DNA of 64,000 bases from a virus. Location of the stretch: IMG/VR virus record IMGVR_UViG_3300045988_072096; one strand, given 5' to 3'. The translations under genes and the position numbers were made by a program. Positions 1,985 through 25,781 of the stretch are shown here, in pieces. How positions within the stretch are numbered: position 1 is the stretch's first letter; every line of letters begins with the position of its first letter. The notes below the pieces were generated by a model. That model was not told where the DNA came from. It did no database searches and saw nothing but the letters and a program-made list of their open reading frames with translations.

Positions 1985-2088
1985 ACACTAAACCTATGCA
2001 GATAGCGAGAGCATATTGCTTATCGCTACCTGCTTGGTTCCAGTTAAAACGAATGCTATGATTAATAAGCAAAAATAAATATTTAAAA

Positions 2089-2154
2089 ATTCCCTGATGA
2101 GTCTTTGAAAATTAAGACGAAACATTCTCACACGCATTACGAGAGTGTCGGGAT
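2089..2154 (+). ncRNA. Hammerhead ribozyme HH1 (type I, canonical stem II)
   Basis: Core CTGATGA (2094-2100). Stem II is GTCTT/AAGAC. GAAA at 2119-2122. Stem III is ACATTCTC/GAGAGTGT (8 bp, one GU). Cleavage triplet is GTC, with predicted cleavage after C2149. Stem I is ATTCC/GGGAT. Confidence 0.8.
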
Positions 2155-3478: not shown

Positions 3479-3562
3479 TTCTTATGTTCCTGCCGTATTG
3501 GCAATTTTATTGTAAAAATCCCATTAGATTACATTCGTTGTGAAACGCATGTAATCATTTAA

Positions 3563-3631
3563 ACTCAGCCGAGGAGAGTATAAAATTGTGACTGACGAGA
3601 CTCGGACGAAATATGCATAACATATCTCACA
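3563..3631 (+). ncRNA. Hammerhead ribozyme HH3 (same pseudoknot architecture as HH2)
   Basis: CTGACGA at 3592-3598 and GAAA at 3608-3611. Stem III is ATATG-CATAA-CATAT. Cleavage triplet ATC, cleavage after C3626. Stem I is TGTGA/TCACA. Loop-II CTCGG (3601-3605) is complementary to CCGAG (3569-3573) in the loop of hairpin ACTC/GAGT. Stem I, the upstream hairpin and the pseudoknot all covary with HH2. Confidence 0.75.
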
Positions 3632-3811: not shown

Positions 3812-3935
3812 CGAAATATTGTAACAGTTTTGCATGTTTTTACGTGAATAATAGTAGCGTATCTTAAAAACATGCTGGAGAGAGATCGAAAGGTCTATTT
3901 TAGCATTAATTAAAGTCCCTGCTAAGGACAATTTT

Positions 3936-8122: not shown

Positions 8123-8169
8123 AAGCTCGATTCATAAATTGAATTCAGATCATAGAACCTTTGAGTCAC

Positions 8170-8307
8170 ATGATTAAGTGGAAGGGAAAGTTTACGCCTG
8201 AAGTCTGGCATTATGCAGCAGTTGCGGAACGCCACAGACATGAATTGACATGTCATACAGAGCCTAGAGCCAGTTATGAATTCAGATGCCGAACTTACGG
8301 TAGTTAA
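8170..8307 (+). CDS. Possible 45-aa ORF directly behind an AGAACCTTTGAGTCA box
   Basis: Hand translation gives MIKWKGKFTPEVWHYAAVAERHRHELTCHTEPRASYEFRCRTYGS with a TAA stop. Confidence 0.3.
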   Translation: MIKWKGKFTPEVWHYAAVAERHRHELTCHTEPRASYEFRCRTYGS

Positions 8308-8714
8308 ATATAAGTCACATGATCAAAAGAATTGAATCTTAGCGAGTCATTGGAGCCTCGACGAGGTTAGTGTAGGCTAACTACGTCGACTGAGATGTAA
8401 ATCAAAAATGTTGAAAGCGACATGCAAGAGTCTTAGAGCCAGTCATATCACCGCTTATATTGAGCCAAATAAAGCCGTTTTAAAGCGTTATTAATCAATT
8501 GTGAAGTAGCTAATCACATGAGACCAAATAGCGTCTTAAAACGGCTTAAAACAGGCTTAAATCAAATGTTCTATCTGATCAATAGAACATTTACAAAGAA
8601 TAATAGCATGTATGAGGTAATTTACGAAGACGAGGGTTCGACTCCCTCATGGTCCACGTCTACATATACATTCTCATAAAATATAATTGATCCATCGTAA
8701 AACGAAAATTATCG

Positions 8715-8747
8715 CCAATGTGGTTCGTGAGAATAGCATTGGTTTTT
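8715..8747 (+). terminator. Terminator-like hairpin with conserved 14-nt loop (copy 1)
   Basis: CCAATGT / GGTTCGTGAGAATA / GCATTGG followed by TTTTT. Confidence 0.55.
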
Positions 8748-8890
8748 AACAAGGGCCATACTGGATTTGATTCGTAAAGGAAGTAAATACGTTAAGTGCT
8801 ACTATATAAATTCAACTGGCAACTATAATGTTGTAGACTACACACATGTAGCATGAGTGTAATCTGAGTGTTTCCTACTAAAGTGGAGGA

Positions 8891-8938
8891 AGATGTAATA
8901 CGATAGGCGTACATTGTGGTTCGAGCCCACTACATCTA
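8891..8938 (+). ncRNA. tRNA-like element lacking an anticodon arm (acceptor, D-like hairpin and T arm)
   Basis: Acceptor AGATGTA/TACATCT (7 bp). D-like hairpin TACG-ATAGG-CGTA. T arm GTGG-TTCGAGC-CCAC. Only CAT occupies the place of the anticodon and variable region. Confidence 0.55.
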
Positions 8939-8982
8939 CGAAATTTATTTGTCTATTGTTTATGAAAAGTTATTAGAGTAGT

Positions 8983-9013
8983 AATGCACGGTTCGTGAGA
9001 ATAGTGCATTTTT
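8983..9013 (+). terminator. Terminator-like hairpin with conserved 14-nt loop (copy 2)
   Basis: AATGCAC / GGTTCGTGAGAATA / GTGCATT followed by TTTTT. The loop is identical to copy 1 and the stem covaries. Confidence 0.55.
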
Positions 9014-9022
9014 AATTTGATT

Positions 9023-18861: not shown

Positions 18862-18952
18862 TGCAGTGAAGTCTATGTGCGCATAGCTCCTGAAGAGAGA
18901 TGACATCGTAGCGGATAACGTCTCTTAGTGGGTTCGAGTCCCACCACTGCAA
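18862..18952 (+). ncRNA. 91-nt tRNA-like element with canonical acceptor and T arm but a non-canonical core
   Basis: Acceptor TGCAGTG/CACTGCA (7 bp). T arm GTGGG-TTCGAGT-CCCAC. The central 59 nt fold as CTAT-GTGCGC-ATAG plus AAGAGA/TCTCTT rather than as D and anticodon arms. Confidence 0.5.
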
Positions 18953-18978
18953 CTATATTAACTAAGAACCTTTGAGTC

Positions 18979-20862
18979 ATGATAATACGAAATTCCGTCG
19001 TAGTAGTATACGACATAGAGATCTTCCCAAACGTATTTCATTGTACTTGTAAAGACACAGAGGAAAATAAATTGTACTTTTTTGAAATATCAGATCGTAA
19101 AAATCAGCTAACAGAATTAGTTGATTTTTTCTTTTATAAGAATATAGGCGATAAGATGTTTTGTGGGTATAATAACAAACACTATGATGATGTAGTAATA
19201 AACTATCTTATAGATTTTTATTATAAAATGGATACATTATCATATGATAAAGTTTGTACATCTTTGTATAATCTTTCAAATACGATAGTTACGGCAGAAG
19301 AAGGTGATACTAGTAAATTCAAGCGATGGAAATATGCAAAGTATTTCTACTCAATGGATTTGCTAACAATGTTGTTTAGTTCTAAGTTACGTGTAGGTCT
19401 TAAAGAAATGCAAGTAACTATGCACTACAAAAATGTAGAAGAATATTCTGGTGACTTTAGTCAGTTTCTACCAGATTCAGAAATAGATAACATGATAAAA
19501 TATAATATAAACGATGTAGAGTCAACAACTGAACTTCTAAATAGGTTGAAAGACGATGTACAACTACGTCTGTTTATAGAAAAAGAATACGGTATTGATG
19601 CCTTATCGATGGATAGTGTAAAATTCGGAGAGACACTTCTATTGAAAAAGTATTGTGAACAAACAAAACTTAGTGAACAATATGTGAAAACATTGCGTTC
19701 ACCTATGGATTACATTCCGTTAAAAGACGTCATATTACCGTTCATATCGTACAAAAATCCAAAATTACAAGACGTTCTTGAGGATATGAAGAGCCAAGTA
19801 GTATATTCTAAAGAACGCAAAGGCTATGAGAAGAAGTTTGTTCTCTCAAACGTACGCTATTCTGTAGGTGTAGGAGGTATACATTCCTTGCATACACCAC
19901 AAATCTTCGTTCCTAATGACAATGAATACATAGGTCATTCGGATGTGGCTAGTATGTACCCTTCGTTTATCATAAAGTATAGATGGATTCCACGTCATTT
20001 AGGTAAAGAATTTTGGCAAGTATATTCGCAAATATATAAAGAGCGAATAGAAGCAAAACATAGTGGACAGAAATTAAAGAACTTAGCTCTAAAGTTAACT
20101 TTGAATTCTGTCACCGGAAAAATGCAACAGGAAACCAGTTGGATGTACGATCCATTCAGTGTCTTTAAGATACGTATCAATGGACAATTGATACTATTGA
20201 TGTTAGTGGATCGACTGCTGGAGTTGAACTGTAAGATTGTGCAGGTCAACACAGATGGTGTGATGTATATTGCTCAAAAGACACAACGTGAAGCAGTGCA
20301 GGAAGCTGTTTCAGAAGTTGAGCAATTAACACAACTGACTTTCGAGTCCGATGACTATGAGGCGTTTTATCAGTACGCCATAAATGACTATTTTGGTGTC
20401 GAAAAAGGGTATTCACAATCTCACGACCCTAAACTGATAGAGAAAAAGGGAATGTTTATCACAGATCCTAGATTGGGTAAAGGGTTAGCACCAGCCATTA
20501 TTCCAAAGGCTGTGATAAACTATTTTTTAACCAAACAACCAACTTTTGAGTACATCAAATCGTCCAAAGACATTAAAGACTTTATGATGTACCAGCGCGT
20601 AGATAAGAAGTTCAAAGTTCTACATGGTGATAAACCTGTACAACGAATAAATCGATTCTATGCGTCAACAAACGATTATTCCTTGTTCAAGGTAGATGAC
20701 ACAGGTAAAGTAGCGAATATGCTTACTAAATCTGGAGTAACTATCTTAAACGAGATGAATGATATCCCAATTGAAAACAGACATATAAATTACCAGTATT
20801 ATATTGGTGAGGCAAATAAAATCATATCAGAATTTGTCTGTCAACAGTTGGAGCTGTTTTAG
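18979..20862 (+). CDS. Family B DNA polymerase with 3'-5' exonuclease domain
   Basis: Exo I VYDIEIF, Exo II YNNKHYDD, Exo III YNINDVEST. Pol motif A DVASMYPS, motif B KLTLNSVTGK, motif C VNTDGV. Ends in TAG TAA. Confidence 0.95.
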   Translation: MIIRNSVVVVYDIEIFPNVFHCTCKDTEENKLYFFEISDRKNQLTELVDFFFYKNIGDKMFCGYNNKHYDDVVINYLIDFYYKMDTLSYDKVCTSLYNLSNTIVTAEEGDTSKFKRWKYAKYFYSMDLLTMLFSSKLRVGLKEMQVTMHYKNVEEYSGDFSQFLPDSEIDNMIKYNINDVESTTELLNRLKDDVQLRLFIEKEYGIDALSMDSVKFGETLLLKKYCEQTKLSEQYVKTLRSPMDYIPLKDVILPFISYKNPKLQDVLEDMKSQVVYSKERKGYEKKFVLSNVRYSVGVGGIHSLHTPQIFVPNDNEYIGHSDVASMYPSFIIKYRWIPRHLGKEFWQVYSQIYKERIEAKHSGQKLKNLALKLTLNSVTGKMQQETSWMYDPFSVFKIRINGQLILLMLVDRLLELNCKIVQVNTDGVMYIAQKTQREAVQEAVSEVEQLTQLTFESDDYEAFYQYAINDYFGVEKGYSQSHDPKLIEKKGMFITDPRLGKGLAPAIIPKAVINYFLTKQPTFEYIKSSKDIKDFMMYQRVDKKFKVLHGDKPVQRINRFYASTNDYSLFKVDDTGKVANMLTKSGVTILNEMNDIPIENRHINYQYYIGEANKIISEFVCQQLELF

Positions 20863-23664: not shown

Positions 23665-24258
23665 ATGTATAATACTAAAACAGCAATTGTAAATAACGAA
23701 GAGTTTAATTCAAACTATATGCCTGTAGGCATTAACAACGATGTAATGTTGAAATCAGTAGCAGTTGAAAAGAGTCCACAGGGAAAAGACTTCCTTCGTG
23801 TAACATTCGAGAATGGCGCAGGACAAACTGCTGAATTCACAGAGTGGAAAAACGAAAAAAATATGTGGATTAAAACTGATGAAGATTTGCAGAACCGCGA
23901 CAACATTCAGTTTGGACGCATTCTACAGTTGATCAACAGTTTCACTACTGCTCCTGATGTAGAGTTGAACTCTTTTACGGATATGATTAATTGGGTTAAA
24001 ACCACCTTAGACCCTTTTATTCCTACCAATAAAAAGCTTAGACTTAAAGTTATTTACGACAAGAAAGGATATACACAGGTATCTAAGTATGGAACATATG
24101 TAGAACCTATGGATGTCGAAGAGTCTCAGATTAAATTGTTTAAGAACGACCTTCTTGAACGTCCTGTAAAGGCTGATGAAGAGAAGCCTATAGACCCGCT
24201 TGCTGCCACTATAAGCAGTACTCCGGTTACTGAGAAAACGGATGACCTACCGTTCTAA
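23665..24258 (+). CDS. Single-stranded DNA-binding protein
   Basis: C-terminal acidic tip ..EKTDDLPF (bacterial SSB ends D-D-D-I-P-F). Located within the replication module. Confidence 0.65.
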   Translation: MYNTKTAIVNNEEFNSNYMPVGINNDVMLKSVAVEKSPQGKDFLRVTFENGAGQTAEFTEWKNEKNMWIKTDEDLQNRDNIQFGRILQLINSFTTAPDVELNSFTDMINWVKTTLDPFIPTNKKLRLKVIYDKKGYTQVSKYGTYVEPMDVEESQIKLFKNDLLERPVKADEEKPIDPLAATISSTPVTEKTDDLPF

Positions 24259-24289
24259 TAGGTCTGGTGGAGACCGGTTAACTCCGGGG

Positions 24290-24331
24290 TATCGGAATGG
24301 TTTTAGAGAGGTTCGATTCCTCTCCCGATAA
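24290..24331 (+). ncRNA. tRNA-like minihelix (acceptor stem, 10-nt GG-containing linker, T arm)
   Basis: Acceptor TATCGG(A)/(C)CCGATA (6 bp). Linker ATGGTTTTAG. T arm AGAGG-TTCGATT-CCTCT. Confidence 0.5.
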
Positions 24332-24534
24332 CATTGTCTAACCCGAAAATGCTTTCAGCGGAAAGTTATAAATGTCGTCCTTAAGGCGGACGTGAGGTTG
24401 AGAAACCCTCTATGTTAGATTTATTAAAAGTTTTCTTTTAGACAATTGAGTCGGCATATAAAACGTGCATTATCCGACAGTACGGCCTGCAAAGGTAGCA
24501 ACAAGCAGCTATGCTTGGTACAAAAATAGCATCT

Positions 24535-24620
24535 GGCTTAATGGTGAAATTGGTATACACACAACACTTAAAATGTTGCGTTCCGAAAGGAACTTGGGGG
24601 TTCGAGTCCCCTTTGAGCCA
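24535..24620 (+). tRNA. tRNA-Leu (UAA), class II
   Basis: Acceptor GGCTTAA/TTGAGCC. Anticodon stem CAACA/TGTTG with loop CTTAAAA. Long variable arm GTTCC-GAAA-GGAAC. T arm GGGGG-TTCGAGT-CCCCT. Confidence 0.9.
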
Positions 24621-24639
24621 CTAAGTGATATCGCTTAAC

Positions 24640-24705
24640 AGAATATACATATAGTTCAGGCAAATAAAAGACTGCGGCCTAAAGTGGTCTCTATATGTAT
24701 ATTCT
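24640..24705 (+). repeat. Perfect 15-bp inverted repeat (long hairpin)
   Basis: AGAATATACATATAG (24640-24654) pairs with CTATATGTATATTCT (24691-24705) around a 36-nt loop. It lies between tRNA-Leu and the next tRNA-like element. Confidence 0.8.
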
Positions 24706-24707
24706 AC

Positions 24708-24777
24708 CGCCGTAATAGCATTTAGGAATTAATACACTCTTACGAGAGATATTTAGGTTCGACTCCTAATACGGCAC
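24708..24777 (+). ncRNA. tRNA-like element whose anticodon arm is replaced by a 4-bp stem capped with a UACG tetraloop
   Basis: Acceptor (C)GCCGTA/TACGGC(A). GG at positions 18-19. CTCT-TACG-AGAG in place of the anticodon arm. T arm TTAGG-TTCGACT-CCTAA. Confidence 0.5.
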
Positions 24778-24803
24778 AAATACTAACTAAGAACTTATAA
24801 GTC

Positions 24804-25781
24804 ATGTATAGTACGAGAACAGCAATTACAATGAGTCTAAAAGACTTGTTAGATAAATTGACTGATTATGACATATATTCTTACTATGTTGGGCAATTTA
24901 AGATAGGAAAATTGTTCAATAGTCCACTACGATCTGATGATAAAAATCCTTCGTTCGCTATCTTTAAAGGTATGAACGGAGGGCTGTTTTTCAAAGATCA
25001 TGGTAGTGGAGAAGGTGGAAATGCTATTAAGTTTGTAAAACTATACAAGAACATCAACACAAAAGATGAACTTGAACGAGAATTGTTGCGCATCGTCCGA
25101 AAAATGAATCCTAATAGTGGTAATGCTATACGTACGTACTCCTACTCGGTGGATTCAGGGCCAACAGATATCGGAATAGTAAGACAGCCTTTTACAGATG
25201 TAGATAAACGATACTGGAAACAATTTCATATATCAATAGATACATTGAGAAAGTTTCAAGTATTTAGCATTAAATACTTTCTTTGTAATAGAGTCGTCAG
25301 AGGAACCTACAAAGAAACTAGTCCTATGTATGCATATAAAGTTGACGATAAGTTTAAAATATATCGTCCGCTTGCTTCCAAGTATACTAAATGGCGTACC
25401 AATCTGACAAATCGGAACGTACAGGGACTATCCGAATTGCCTGTGGAAGGAGGTAATCTACTTATAATCACGAAAAGTCTTAAAGACGTGATGTGTTTAT
25501 ATGAGATGGGTTTTAATGCAATAGCTGCATCTAGCGAAACAACGTTTATTCCAGACGATATTTTAGATTCGTTACGACATAAATGGAAAAATGTTATAAT
25601 GTTGTACGATAGAGATAAGACAGGAATGTTAGAATCTCGCAAGTATAGTAAACAGTATAAACTGGATGCTTTATTTGTACATAAACGCTTTAAGGCAAAA
25701 GATATATCTGATGCTGTAAAAGATAATTCATACAACGAAGTCAAACAATGGTTAACACAAACATTGATGAAATATGATTGA
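24804..25781 (+). CDS. DNA primase (TOPRIM domain)
   Basis: TOPRIM-like segments LLIITKSLKDVMCLYEMGFNAIA and VIMLYDRDKTG. N-terminal RSDDKNPSF motif. Located within the replication module. Confidence 0.8.
   Translation: MYSTRTAITMSLKDLLDKLTDYDIYSYYVGQFKIGKLFNSPLRSDDKNPSFAIFKGMNGGLFFKDHGSGEGGNAIKFVKLYKNINTKDELERELLRIVRKMNPNSGNAIRTYSYSVDSGPTDIGIVRQPFTDVDKRYWKQFHISIDTLRKFQVFSIKYFLCNRVVRGTYKETSPMYAYKVDDKFKIYRPLASKYTKWRTNLTNRNVQGLSELPVEGGNLLIITKSLKDVMCLYEMGFNAIAASSETTFIPDDILDSLRHKWKNVIMLYDRDKTGMLESRKYSKQYKLDALFVHKRFKAKDISDAVKDNSYNEVKQWLTQTLMKYD

What the first reader, a model, noticed from the sequence alone, without database searches (positions are those of the whole stretch)
24259..24806. tRNA-Leu island packed with structured RNAs: two anticodon-less tRNA mimics, a 115-nt multibranch domain and a 15-bp perfect hairpin
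The elements occur in this order:
- a GGTCT-GGTGG-AGACC hairpin;
- a minihelix (24290-24331: acceptor, GG linker, T arm);
- a domain closed by the 9-bp helix ATTGTCTAA/TTAGACAAT (24333-24447) that encloses three hairpins;
- a canonical tRNA-Leu(UAA);
- a perfect 15-bp inverted repeat (24640-24705);
- a 70-nt tRNA-like element (24708-24777) whose anticodon arm is a 4-bp stem with a UACG tetraloop but which keeps G18G19 and the T loop;
- the AAGAAC..AGTCA box and the primase ATG.

That is about 545 nt with no ORF and almost no unstructured sequence.
Basis: seen in the sequence. Interest (0 to 1): 0.7.

Follow-up and report, generated by a model that had tools for sequence, protein, structure and literature searches.

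The report
tRNA-shaped punctuation marks in a crAss-like phage
The gap before the primase gene of this gut crAss-like phage holds one real tRNA plus several cut-down tRNA look-alikes and a conserved unnamed RNA motif, and relatives keep such look-alikes just upstream of the primase and DNA polymerase genes, so they most likely serve as cutting signals for the host's tRNA-processing enzymes.

Summary
All listed elements are at the stated coordinates. The window is a crAss-like phage (Suoliviridae, Oafivirinae; 96.6% identical to cr131_1).

Results from 80 related loci:
- **Variable island.** The gap between the 197-aa gene and primase varies from 67 to 2157 nt.
- **Conserved head.** In 79 of 82 islands it holds GGTCAGTGGTGGAGG plus a covarying hairpin. 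No Rfam family matches.
- **Minihelix (24290-24330).** It is one form of a syntenic element that keeps a 12-bp acceptor/T stack.
- **70-nt element (24709-24776).** It belongs to a family that includes a Lys-like tRNA, with its anticodon arm replaced by a short capped stem.
- **Position.** In 64 of 77 loci a T arm (30 different stems) ends 22-40 nt before the primase ATG. DNA polymerase shows the same pattern (53 of 70).
- **115-nt domain.** Clade-restricted, with moderate covariation.
- **15-bp repeat.** Strain-specific.
- **24481-24534.** Probably a decayed tRNA-Gln.

Best explanation (about 0.4): tRNA-derived "t-elements" that RNase P and RNase Z cut, defining mRNA ends. Main rival: decaying tRNA genes held in place by recombination.

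The parts
24261..24287 (+). Local copy of a conserved island-head motif: GGTCTGGTGGAG (24261-24272) followed by the hairpin CCGG-TTAACT-CCGG (24274-24287). The consensus elsewhere is GGTCAGTGGTGGAGG, then a variable hairpin, then CCCCTAAC or CCCTGGAG.
   Evidence: TGGTGGA is present in 79 of 82 islands, and once only in this context in the window. 51 distinct versions were found. Covariation of the hairpin was measured on 13 type-A versions from other loci; the window's copy is divergent and was not in that set. There, 99% of cells pair, 4 pairs change on both sides, and G-U wobbles lie on the + strand. The loop tolerates insertions of 30-60 nt. No Rfam family matches.
24290..24331 (+). tRNA top-half mimic (minihelix). 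Acceptor TATCGG/CCGATA; 10-nt bulge AATGGTTTTA containing GG; T arm GAGAGG-TTCGATT-CCTCTC; then A (24331) and CA.
   Evidence: It folds as a 12-bp stack. At the same position L007, L009 and L010 have uninterrupted 12-bp hairpins. L083 has a 6 + 6-bp minihelix. L013 has a tRNA-like element with a D arm and a GCAA-capped stem. The related minihelix family pairs in 99.3% of cells, with 9 of 12 pairs changed on both sides.
24333..24447 (+). 115-nt cloverleaf-like domain: a 9-bp closing helix (24333-24341 / 24438-24446) around three hairpins. The third hairpin (GAGG-TTGAGAAAC-CCTC) resembles a T arm with an enlarged loop. Function unknown.
   Evidence: Fold. A covariance model finds it only in the window, L004, L084, L006-L012 and L078, at 95-121 bits. 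85% of cells pair and 8 pairs change on both sides, across 8 distinct sequences. No Rfam match at E up to 10.
24481..24534 (+). Probable decayed tRNA-Gln remnant. The D-arm segment TGCAAAGGTAGCA is at 24488-24500; the T arm and acceptor are lost.
   Evidence: It is syntenic with the intact tRNA-Gln of cr130_1, L007 and L010, which lies between the domain and tRNA-Leu, and shares 12 of 13 nt with its D arm. A second MAFFT run gave a different register, so the boundaries are soft.
24535..24621 (+). Canonical tRNA-Leu(UAA) with a long variable arm.
   Evidence: ARAGORN; Rfam RF00005 at 54.2 bits; annotated as tRNA-Leu in cr131_1.
24622..24707 (+). Strain-specific spacer: a small hairpin (24622-24637) and a long hairpin closed by a perfect 15-bp inverted repeat (24640-24654 / 24691-24705).
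   Evidence: It is absent from all 83 loci then held. The only other copy among IMG/VR viral contigs is L084, a 98%-identical strain. No T-run follows it, so it is not terminator-like.
24709..24776 (+). Anticodon-less tRNA-like element. Acceptor GCCGTA/TACGGC (6 bp); D arm with GG; anticodon arm replaced by CTCT-TACG-AGAG (24737-24748); T arm TTAGG-TTCGACT-CCTAA; A at 24776, then CA.
   Evidence: Rfam tRNA model 19.5 bits, below the gathering score. Homologues occur in L084, cr130_1, L007 and L010. In L008, L009, L078 and L065 the same family carries a full anticodon arm (loop CAUUUAA; ARAGORN calls tRNA-Lys(ttt)). It is missing in cr131_1 and L004.
24777..24806 (+). Primase leader: CAAATACTAACTA, then the box AGAACTTATAAGTCA (24790-24804), which overlaps the start codon ATG (24804-24806).
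   Evidence: The box pattern has three exact matches in the window, at 8154, 18965 and 24790. A clade-specific palindromic core is kept before the primase ATG in the related loci.

Best explanation
**What it is.** The island is a tRNA-gene array of an Oafivirinae crAss-like phage in which most members have lost decoding. They keep the part of a tRNA that processing enzymes recognise: a 12-bp acceptor/T-arm stack, a T loop, and usually a GG that can form the elbow.

**How I think it works.**
- These "t-elements" are transcribed together with the flanking replication genes.
- Host RNase P cuts at their 5' side. RNase Z, or another 3' tRNA-processing enzyme, cuts at their 3' side.
- This separates the upstream mRNA, the tRNA-Leu and the primase mRNA. 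The primase mRNA is left with a short leader of about 26 nt that starts just after the element (A-C-A...).
- The same device precedes the DNA polymerase gene.
- The GGTC.GTGGTGGAGG-plus-hairpin motif at the head of the island is a conserved RNA signal of the same transcript. It may be a 3' protective hairpin or a regulatory or processing site.

**Shown:** the structures, their conservation, their covariation and their positions.

**Inferred:** co-transcription, cleavage by RNase P and RNase Z, and any effect on expression.
For: 1. **Non-canonical elements are common.** T-arm-plus-acceptor elements that ARAGORN does not call fill the islands of 80 related phages.
2. **Position at primase.** In 64 of 77 non-duplicate loci the last T arm ends 22-40 nt before the primase ATG. 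There are 30 different T-stem sequences, and almost all are followed by A-C-A/U. True tRNAs (Leu, Lys, Met, Pro), minihelices and capped elements all occupy this same slot.
3. **Second locus.** 53 of 70 relatives have a T arm within 80 nt of the DNA polymerase ATG. The window's own element there is 18862-18952.
4. **The top half is kept while the bottom half varies.**
   - Minihelix family: 99.3% of cells paired, 9 of 12 pairs changed on both sides.
   - Lys-like family: the anticodon arm is swapped for a short stem, while the T and acceptor stems change in a compensatory way.
   - A pseudoknot-core family has covarying b/b' strands (read).
5. **The 12-bp stack.** At the syntenic site after the head motif, different phages have a tRNA-like element, a bulged minihelix or a plain hairpin. 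Most of the nine folded keep a 12-bp stack. That is the length RNase P and RNase Z measure (established knowledge).
6. **No transcription signals inside the island.** There is no sigma-70-like or Bacteroides-type (TAnnTTTG) promoter and no convincing intrinsic terminator on the + strand. This fits co-transcription.
7. **Other RNA-cutting devices nearby.** The same genome places hammerhead ribozymes next to its other tRNAs.
8. **Experimental precedent.** Plant-mitochondrial t-elements were found by the same GGTTCRANYCC screen. They direct RNase Z and RNase P cleavage that forms mRNA 5' and 3' ends (PMC1920247).
Against: - No transcript ends are known, and no expression data were available.
- The element before primase is dispensable. 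cr131_1 and L004 lack it, with tRNA-Leu taking its place, and 13 of 77 loci have no T arm near the ATG.
- Indels run from one tRNA-like 3' end to the next. Recombination between T-arm repeats could therefore keep a tRNA-like end next to the box without any selection.
- Within the closest subfamily of the 70-nt element, changes are neutral or mildly disruptive, not compensatory. The window copy has a C-A mismatch in the D stem and only a 6-bp acceptor.
- My acceptor search at 6 of 7 pairs would find a match by chance about twice per T arm (own estimate), so several long-linker elements are doubtful.
- The T-arm regex creates ascertainment bias in favour of T-loop conservation.
- The loci are phylogenetically related, so the counts are not independent events.
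Confidence: 0.4

Rival explanations
1. A tRNA graveyard. The mimics are decaying tRNA pseudogenes with no function of their own. Their fixed position next to the leader box is a by-product of how the island rearranges, namely recombination between similar T-arm and 3'-end sequences of neighbouring tRNA-like genes or of co-infecting phages.
For: - A dead tRNA-Gln remnant sits in the same island.
- The 70-nt element has a weakened acceptor and D stem.
- cr131_1 and L004 lack the segment 24622-24777, which ends at the 3' end of the 70-nt element and begins at that of tRNA-Leu (..GCCAC / ..GGCAC).
- At the DNA polymerase locus, cr131_1 carries an extra cassette that again ends in a tRNA-like element.
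- Island length varies from 67 to 2157 nt.
Against: - The minihelix family shows compensatory double changes among close relatives: pair 21-33 is AU in 6 and GC in 6 sequences.
- Three independent families keep the acceptor and T stems while the lower half is replaced by a neat capped stem or a pseudoknot, rather than eroding at random.
- The 70-nt element is about as conserved between genera as the primase protein (82%), while the spacer next to it cannot be aligned.
- A 12-bp stack is kept even where all tRNA sequence similarity is gone.
Confidence: 0.25
2. Free-standing tRNA mimics that act in trans. After release, the elements accumulate as small stable RNAs. They bind or soak up a tRNA-recognising factor, for example a host defence nuclease or transferase that attacks tRNA acceptor ends, a tRNA-modifying enzyme, or the CCA-adding enzyme. 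In this they resemble Y-RNA-like tRNA mimics or the phage T4 stable RNAs.
For: - The elbow-forming GG and the T loop are kept as well as the stack.
- The same genome encodes a two-piece tmRNA-like RNA and several tRNAs.
- tRNA tails and acceptor ends are known immune targets (PMC12851939, listed; title and abstract only).
Against: - A trans-acting decoy has no need to sit 26 nt before replication genes at two loci.
- At the syntenic site some phages have a plain 12-bp hairpin with a degenerate loop, which is a poor mimic of a whole tRNA.
- No G3-U70 or other simple aminoacylation identity element is present in the window's elements (sequence).
- No Rfam YrlA or Y RNA match.
Confidence: 0.15
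3. DNA-level signals. The head motif and its hairpin, and possibly the 15-bp inverted repeat, act on DNA rather than RNA. They could be a single-strand initiation or primase-loading site, an origin, or a recombination site that marks where cassettes enter the island.
For: - The motif is single-copy and sits in the replication module next to the primase gene. It marks the left edge of a hypervariable cassette region.
- Hairpins in single-stranded DNA also tolerate G-T pairs.
Against: - GC skew switches at about 28 kb, where gene orientation changes, not at 24.3 kb.
- The motif is always on the sense strand. It often lies 5-8 nt before an ATG or directly before a tRNA or tRNA-like element, as expected of an RNA leader.
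- The tRNA-like elements themselves show RNA-type wobble pairs on the + strand.
Confidence: 0.08

Closest known systems
t-elements of plant mitochondria (tRNA-like elements at mRNA ends; Forner et al. 2007, PMC1920247)
   Same: Non-canonical cloverleaves or acceptor-like hairpins that keep the GGTTCRANYCC T arm. They lie directly at gene borders and sit beside true tRNAs that do the same job. They were found by the same motif screen.
   Different: There, mRNA ends were mapped and RNase Z/P cleavage was supported by experiment. Here nothing is mapped. The host is a bacterium (probably Bacteroidales) infected by a DNA phage. The phage elements are more reduced (42-nt minihelices, 12-bp hairpins). 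They sit at a fixed distance of about 26 nt from the start codon, ahead of a conserved box.
tRNA-like processing modules of other viruses and long RNAs (murine gammaherpesvirus 68 tRNA-miRNA transcripts; MALAT1 mascRNA). From my own knowledge, not checked here.
   Same: A tRNA-shaped fold without decoding function, used so that RNase P or RNase Z cuts a longer transcript at a defined point.
   Different: These are eukaryotic systems with Pol III promoters or nuclear processing. They have no link to replication-gene leaders and share no sequence relationship.
Phage and plasmid RNAs matured by RNase P (T4 stable RNAs species 1 and 2 in the tRNA cluster; P1/P7 C4 RNA). From my own knowledge, not checked here.
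   Same: Phage-encoded non-tRNA RNAs that sit in or near tRNA clusters and carry acceptor-like ends recognised by RNase P.
   Different: Those are single genes in single phages with their own trans functions (or none known). They are not a diversified, position-specific family.
tRNA-like domain of tmRNA
   Same: An acceptor stem, a D-loop-like GG stretch without a D stem, and a T arm, with no anticodon. The same window carries a two-piece tmRNA-like gene at 8567-8947.
   Different: The island elements have no G3-U70 pair, no tag reading frame and no pseudoknot ring. In a tmRNA the two halves of the acceptor are separated by the mRNA-like part.
Ribozymes next to phage tRNAs (theta HDV-like ribozymes, PMC10879173; RAGATH-1 hammerheads)
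   Same: RNA-borne processing devices placed beside tRNA genes in gut phages. Hammerheads occur in this very window at 2500-2606 and 3562-3631.
   Different: No ribozyme model matches anything in 24150-24900 at E up to 10. The layout of the 115-nt domain and of the head motif does not fit the HDV-like order of helices.

Membership tests
Canonical tRNA (Rfam RF00005) | Score at or above the 29-bit gathering threshold; 7-bp acceptor stem | tested here: not met
   24709-24776 scores 19.5 bits (E = 0.29) and has a 6-bp acceptor. The minihelix at 24290-24331 gets no tRNA hit at all, and ARAGORN calls neither. tRNA-Leu at 24535-24621 does meet it, at 54 bits.
Canonical tRNA (Rfam RF00005) | 5-bp anticodon stem with a 7-nt loop carrying an anticodon | tested here: not met
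   24737-24748 is a 4-bp stem with a 4-nt loop. The minihelix has only a 10-nt bulge in place of the D and anticodon arms.
t-elements (tRNA-like mRNA-end signals) | Non-canonical tRNA-like fold that keeps the GGTTCRANYCC T arm and an acceptor-like stem | tested here: met
   AGGTTCGATTCCT at 24309-24321 and AGGTTCGACTCCT at 24755-24767. Acceptor stems of 6 bp.
t-elements (tRNA-like mRNA-end signals) | Element borders coincide with mapped mRNA 5' or 3' termini | not testable with these tools
   No transcript data were available. The only support is positional: the element ends about 26 nt before the ATG in 64 of 77 loci.
t-elements (tRNA-like mRNA-end signals) | Cleavage by RNase P and/or RNase Z | not testable with these tools
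   Inferred from the 12-bp stack and from the known substrate rules of these enzymes.
tmRNA tRNA-like domain | G3-U70 alanine identity pair and a linked tag-encoding reading frame | tested here: not met
   The third acceptor pair is U-A in the minihelix and C-G in the 70-nt element (sequence). There is no ORF in the island. The only tmRNA-type hit here is a 17-nt T-arm match at 11.7 bits.
Bacterial Y-RNA-like tRNA mimics (YrlA) | Match to the family model | tested here: not met
   No YrlA or Y RNA hit at E up to 10 in 24150-24900. Linkage to a Ro60 (rsr) gene, the other defining feature, was not looked for.
Known self-cleaving ribozymes (hammerhead, HDV-like/theta, twister, twister-sister, pistol, hatchet) | Match to the family covariance model | tested here: not met
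   There is no hit for the 115-nt domain or the window's head motif at E up to 10. There is none for consensus-type head motifs in 10 loci at E up to 5. By eye, the order of helices does not fit HDV-like ribozymes.
Intrinsic (Rho-independent) terminator, considered for the 15-bp inverted repeat | G+C-rich hairpin followed by a T-run | tested here: not met
   The arms are A+T-rich and are followed by ACCGCC. The scan does not list it.

The most novel reading that the evidence does not exclude
Oafivirinae crAss-like phages maintain a diversified family of anticodon-less tRNA top-half mimics: 12-bp-stack minihelices, pseudoknot-core elements and tetraloop-capped elements. These recruit host RNase P and RNase Z to cut the DNA polymerase and primase mRNAs out of longer early transcripts, a phage version of the mitochondrial tRNA-punctuation and t-element system. 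In addition, the island is headed by an undescribed RNA motif of about 45 nt (GGUCAGUGGUGGAGG, variable hairpin, CCCCUAAC or CCCUGGAG). It is present in 79 of 82 phages and could be a new ribozyme or a conformational switch, because its 5' GGUCAG can pair with either arm of the hairpin.
Probability: 0.25. Interest if true: 0.75.

Novelty: new variant of a known kind. Interest (0 to 1): 0.6.

Why it matters
- **Gene expression in crAss-like phages.** They are the most abundant phages of the human gut, yet how their genes are expressed is largely unknown, and this subfamily has no cultured member that I know of.
- **If the processing model holds.** These phages would define the mRNA ends of key replication genes by borrowing the host's tRNA-processing machinery. 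That mechanism is so far documented for organelles and a few eukaryotic viruses, not for bacteriophages.
- **Annotation.** It would explain the "tRNA pseudogenes" and odd low-scoring tRNA calls that annotators report in these genomes.
- **tRNA evolution.** It would show in stages how tRNA genes are converted into pure structure signals.
- **Testable signals.** The head motif and the palindromic leader box are concrete, testable candidates for regulatory signals of the replication module.
- **Tools.** The very compact 42-nt minihelices could serve as small processing tags.

Tried and rejected
- **Known RNA families.** Rfam at the gathering threshold on the window and on 20 loci, and at permissive E-values on the region and on 10 more loci, gave only tRNA hits in the islands.
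- **Theta/HDV-like ribozyme after the tRNA or the minihelix.** No model hit. The order of helices does not fit, and the stretch after tRNA-Leu is a plain 6-bp hairpin.
- **Hammerhead core in the 115-nt domain.** None found.
- **Head motif as a Chi-like or skewed DNA word.** TGGTGGA occurs 11 times against 3.6 expected. The other 10 copies share no flanking similarity and follow gene orientation, so they probably reflect codon usage.
- **Head motif as a small ORF or a Shine-Dalgarno site.** An ATG precedes it in only some loci, the reading frame is not kept, and no start codon follows GGAGG at the right distance.
- **Head motif as a G-quadruplex or an integron attC site.** The G-runs and the core sites are not conserved.
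- **Replication origin at the island.** The GC-skew turning point is at about 28 kb.
- **Host origin of the motif.** A scan of 185,579 species genomes gave one chance hit and one mis-binned crAss-like contig.
- **The 15-bp repeat as a mobile element.** It has no other copies and no target-site duplication.
- **Exact 15-mer scan of viral contigs for the motif.** About half of the 111 hits were chance matches in G+C-rich contigs and had to be filtered out.
- **Literature.** I found no description of these elements in crAss-like phages. A sequence-string search returned only unrelated linker sequences.
- **Limits of my acceptor finder.** At 6 of 7 pairs it is not significant on its own, so I relied on recurring architectures, 7 of 7 cases and covariation.
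Full report
**Identity of the window.** The region is 96.6% identical to crAss-like phage cr131_1 (NC_055902; Suoliviridae, Oafivirinae, Cacepaovirus simiae). The finding lies between a 197-aa gene of unknown function (23665-24258; no Pfam or PHROG hit) and the DNA primase gene (24804-25781; PHROG 12622). It sits inside the replication module, next to a DnaB-like helicase, an AAA_24/RecA-like protein and a PDDEXK protein. No ORF of 60 aa or more lies in 24259-24803.

**Check of the observation.** Every listed element is present.
- ARAGORN and Rfam confirm tRNA-Leu(taa) at 24535-24621.
- The minihelix folds into 6 + 6 bp with a 10-nt bulge and a TTCGATT loop.
- The 9-bp helix 24333-24341 / 24438-24446 closes a three-hairpin domain.
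- The 15-nt inverted repeat is perfect. The stretch 24622-24707 that holds it folds far better than shuffles (z = -5.95).
- The 70-nt element matches the tRNA model over its full length. It scores only 19.5 bits, because the anticodon arm is a 4-bp stem with a 4-nt loop.
- The whole region folds better than 100 of 100 shuffles.
- The first hairpin (GGTCT/AGACC) is not better than chance.

**Comparative data.** A primase-based search of IMG/VR returned 80 loci with 67-99% protein identity.
- Using the two flanking proteins as anchors, the island between them ranges from 67 to 2157 nt. It is therefore a hypervariable cassette site.
- cr131_1 and L004 lack 24622-24777, so tRNA-Leu abuts the primase leader there.
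- cr130_1 belongs to another genus. It keeps the 70-nt element and carries an intact tRNA-Gln where the window has only a D-arm remnant.

**The head motif.**
- TGGTGGA occurs in 79 of 82 islands. The consensus is GGTCAGTGGTGGAGG, then a hairpin of variable sequence and length, then CCCCTAAC/CCCCTTC or CCCTGGAG.
- On 13 distinct type-A versions from other loci, 99% of hairpin cells pair. Four pairs change on both sides, and G-U wobbles lie on the + strand. The window's divergent copy was not in this set.
- The terminal loop accepts insertions of 30-60 nt.
- The 5' GGTCAG can usually pair with one arm of the hairpin, so two conformations are possible. I read this from the sequences and did not test it.
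- The motif lies within 5-20 nt of the upstream stop codon in many loci. It is followed within a few nucleotides by an ATG, a true tRNA, or a tRNA-like element.
- It is single-copy in the window.
- It matches no Rfam family and is absent from bacterial genomes apart from a mis-binned phage contig.
- In the window it reads GGTCTGGTGGAG plus CCGG-TTAACT-CCGG. L006 has the compensatory CCAG/CTGG.
- Its function is open.

**The tRNA-like elements.** A scan for T arms (5-bp stem, loop TTCRANY) finds many elements in the islands that ARAGORN does not call. In the window such arms lie on the + strand at 24307, 24596 and 24753. Further ones lie at 8632, 8915 and 18928, against about one expected by chance per strand.

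Three non-canonical architectures recur:
- **Minihelices.** A 7-bp acceptor, a 10-11-nt linker beginning xUGG, then a T arm. Across 12 distinct sequences 99.3% of cells pair and 9 of 12 pairs change on both sides.
- **Pseudoknot-core elements.** The middle reads AUGGUA-b-CCAUA-b', and b/b' covary: GUGUG/CACAC, AUAUG/CAUAU, CACACA/UGUGUG, UAUAUGC/GCAUAUA (read).
- **Capped elements.** The anticodon arm is a short capped stem, as in the window's 24709-24776 (UACG) and in L013 (GCAA).

The window's 70-nt element belongs to a family of seven variants. Two of them (L008/L009/L078, and L065) carry a full anticodon arm with loop CAUUUAA, which ARAGORN calls tRNA-Lys. T-stem and acceptor pairs change in a compensatory way between the subgroups. 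Within the capped subgroup, changes are neutral or mildly disruptive.

At the site just after the head motif, nine phages were folded. L013 has a Gln-like element with a D arm and a GCAA cap. The window and L006 have a bulged minihelix, L083 has a 6 + 6-bp minihelix, and L007, L009 and L010 have plain hairpins. Most of them stack 12 bp.

**Position.**
- In 64 of 77 non-duplicate loci the last T arm ends 22-40 nt before the primase ATG, with a mode of 33. There are 30 different T stems, and the trailer is almost always A-C-A or A-C-U.
- A clade-specific palindromic leader box then follows, overlapping or abutting the ATG: ACTTATAAGT, AAGCTTAAGCTT or GAGCTTATAAGCC.
- The window has the same box at 18965, in front of the DNA polymerase gene (PHROG 1252). 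It is preceded by a 91-nt tRNA-like element (18862-18952; 23 bits).
- Among 70 relatives with a complete start, 53 have a T arm within 80 nt of the DNA polymerase ATG.
- cr131_1 has an extra cassette at that locus, and it again ends in an anticodon-less element directly before the box.
- A third box copy, at 8154, heads a long non-coding stretch that holds a two-piece tmRNA-like gene.

**The 115-nt domain.** A covariance model built from five sequences finds it only in the window and its nearest clade, where primase identity is 82% or more. 85% of cells pair and 8 pairs change on both sides. There are only 8 distinct sequences, and the alignment was fitted to the model. Its third hairpin resembles a T arm with one or two extra loop bases, and the overall topology is a cloverleaf. 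It may be another, older tRNA derivative, but nothing tested here proves that.

**The 15-bp repeat.** It is found only here and in a 98%-identical contig. No T-run follows it, and there is no evidence for a conserved role.

**Interpretation.** The island is a tRNA array caught in several states:
- intact (Leu);
- decapitated but well-formed (the 70-nt element);
- reduced to the top half (the minihelix);
- possibly unrecognisable (the 115-nt domain);
- dead (the Gln remnant).

What survives in the non-dead members is exactly what RNase P, RNase Z and the CCA-adding enzyme read: a 12-bp acceptor/T stack capped by a T loop, often with a GG for the elbow (established knowledge of these enzymes). 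Four further points lead me to favour a processing role:
- the fixed position before two replication genes;
- the lack of recognisable promoters or terminators inside the island;
- the hammerheads near the phage's other tRNAs;
- the experimentally supported precedent of plant-mitochondrial t-elements.

The cleavage itself is inferred, not shown.

**Main rival.** The observed indels run from one tRNA-like 3' end to the next. Recombination between T-arm repeats could therefore keep a tRNA-like end next to the box without selection. The element is also dispensable in some phages. The compensatory changes and the orderly replacement of the lower half argue against pure decay, but the sequences are related and the counts are not independent. 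I put the processing model at about 0.4, pure decay at 0.25, trans-acting mimics at 0.15, and DNA-level roles (mainly for the head motif) below 0.1.

**Novelty.** tRNA-like processing signals are a known kind. I found no description of them for crAss-like or other phages in the searchable literature. One preprint merely notes low-scoring "tRNA-like" pseudogenes in a Crassvirales genome. The head motif has no match in Rfam 15. I rate the finding as a new variant of a known kind, with a moderately high interest score.

Noticed in passing
window 8567-8947: A two-piece (permuted) tmRNA-like gene. ARAGORN calls tmRNA* with tag GNYNVVDYTHVA*. Rfam tmRNA_permuted scores 40 bits, below its 47-bit gathering score, at 8599-8856. 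The acceptor strands GGGCCAU/AUGGUCC would give a G3-U70 pair. It lies in an ORF-free stretch of 894 nt (8123-9016) that starts with a copy of the leader box at 8154.
   Followed up: partly
window 2072-2154: A third hammerhead-like element (CUGAUGAG...CGAAAC...GUC core). It scores only 26 bits against RAGATH-1-hammerhead and 22 bits against Hammerhead_3. It comes in addition to the two RAGATH-1 hammerheads at 2500-2606 and 3562-3631, which lie about 100 nt upstream of tRNA-Met and tRNA-Gln.
   Followed up: partly
window 3852-3930: A weak match to RAGATH-12 RNA (36 bits; gathering score 75; E = 1e-4), 40 nt downstream of tRNA-Gln.
   Followed up: no
window 8154-8168, 18965-18979, 24790-24804: A leader box AGAACyTTwkAGTCA directly at or overlapping start codons (DNA polymerase, primase) and at the head of the tmRNA-like region. 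In relatives its core is a clade-specific palindrome (AAGCTTAAGCTT, ACTTATAAGT, GAGCTTATAAGCC). It is a candidate promoter or operator of the replication module.
   Followed up: partly
window 18862-18952: A 91-nt tRNA-like element (tRNA model 23 bits, below threshold) with an aberrant middle part, ending 26 nt before the DNA polymerase ATG. In cr131_1 (L272) an extra cassette follows it and ends in a different 64-nt anticodon-less element.
   Followed up: yes
L013 and L026 islands (about 200 nt between the first tRNA-like element and the next tRNA): A second conserved non-coding module, unrelated in sequence to the window's 115-nt domain. The shared blocks are CTTGAAGTGAGAA, GTGCCAATA, CTACGGGYGATCGTAG and CAAATCTMTCTCAA. 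It has no Rfam match at the gathering threshold.
   Followed up: no
L003, L016-L024 and others, about 323 nt before the primase ATG: An 80-90-nt tRNA-like gene (acceptor CGAGATG/CATCTCG) annotated as tRNA-Cys in Bohxovirus. ARAGORN does not call it in most relatives. Its anticodon region is hypervariable while the top half is constant.
   Followed up: no
L277 (JAFVGA010000007.1, labelled 'MAG: Eubacterium sp.', sheep abomasum): This 28-kb contig carries the crAss-type gene end, head motif, tRNA-like element, leader box and primase start. It is a crAss-like phage contig binned into a bacterial MAG.
   Followed up: partly
L029 531-758: A sub-threshold group I intron match (30 bits; gathering score 50; E = 8e-4), upstream of the island in one relative.
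   Followed up: no
L093, L119, L124, L183, L053, L141, L090: The hairpin of the head motif carries insertions of 30-60 nt or more in its terminal loop. One recurring insert begins AGTTGAAAAGGATGCGGAGATAAGTAGATTAAGTTCGAAG. Its nature is unknown.
   Followed up: no
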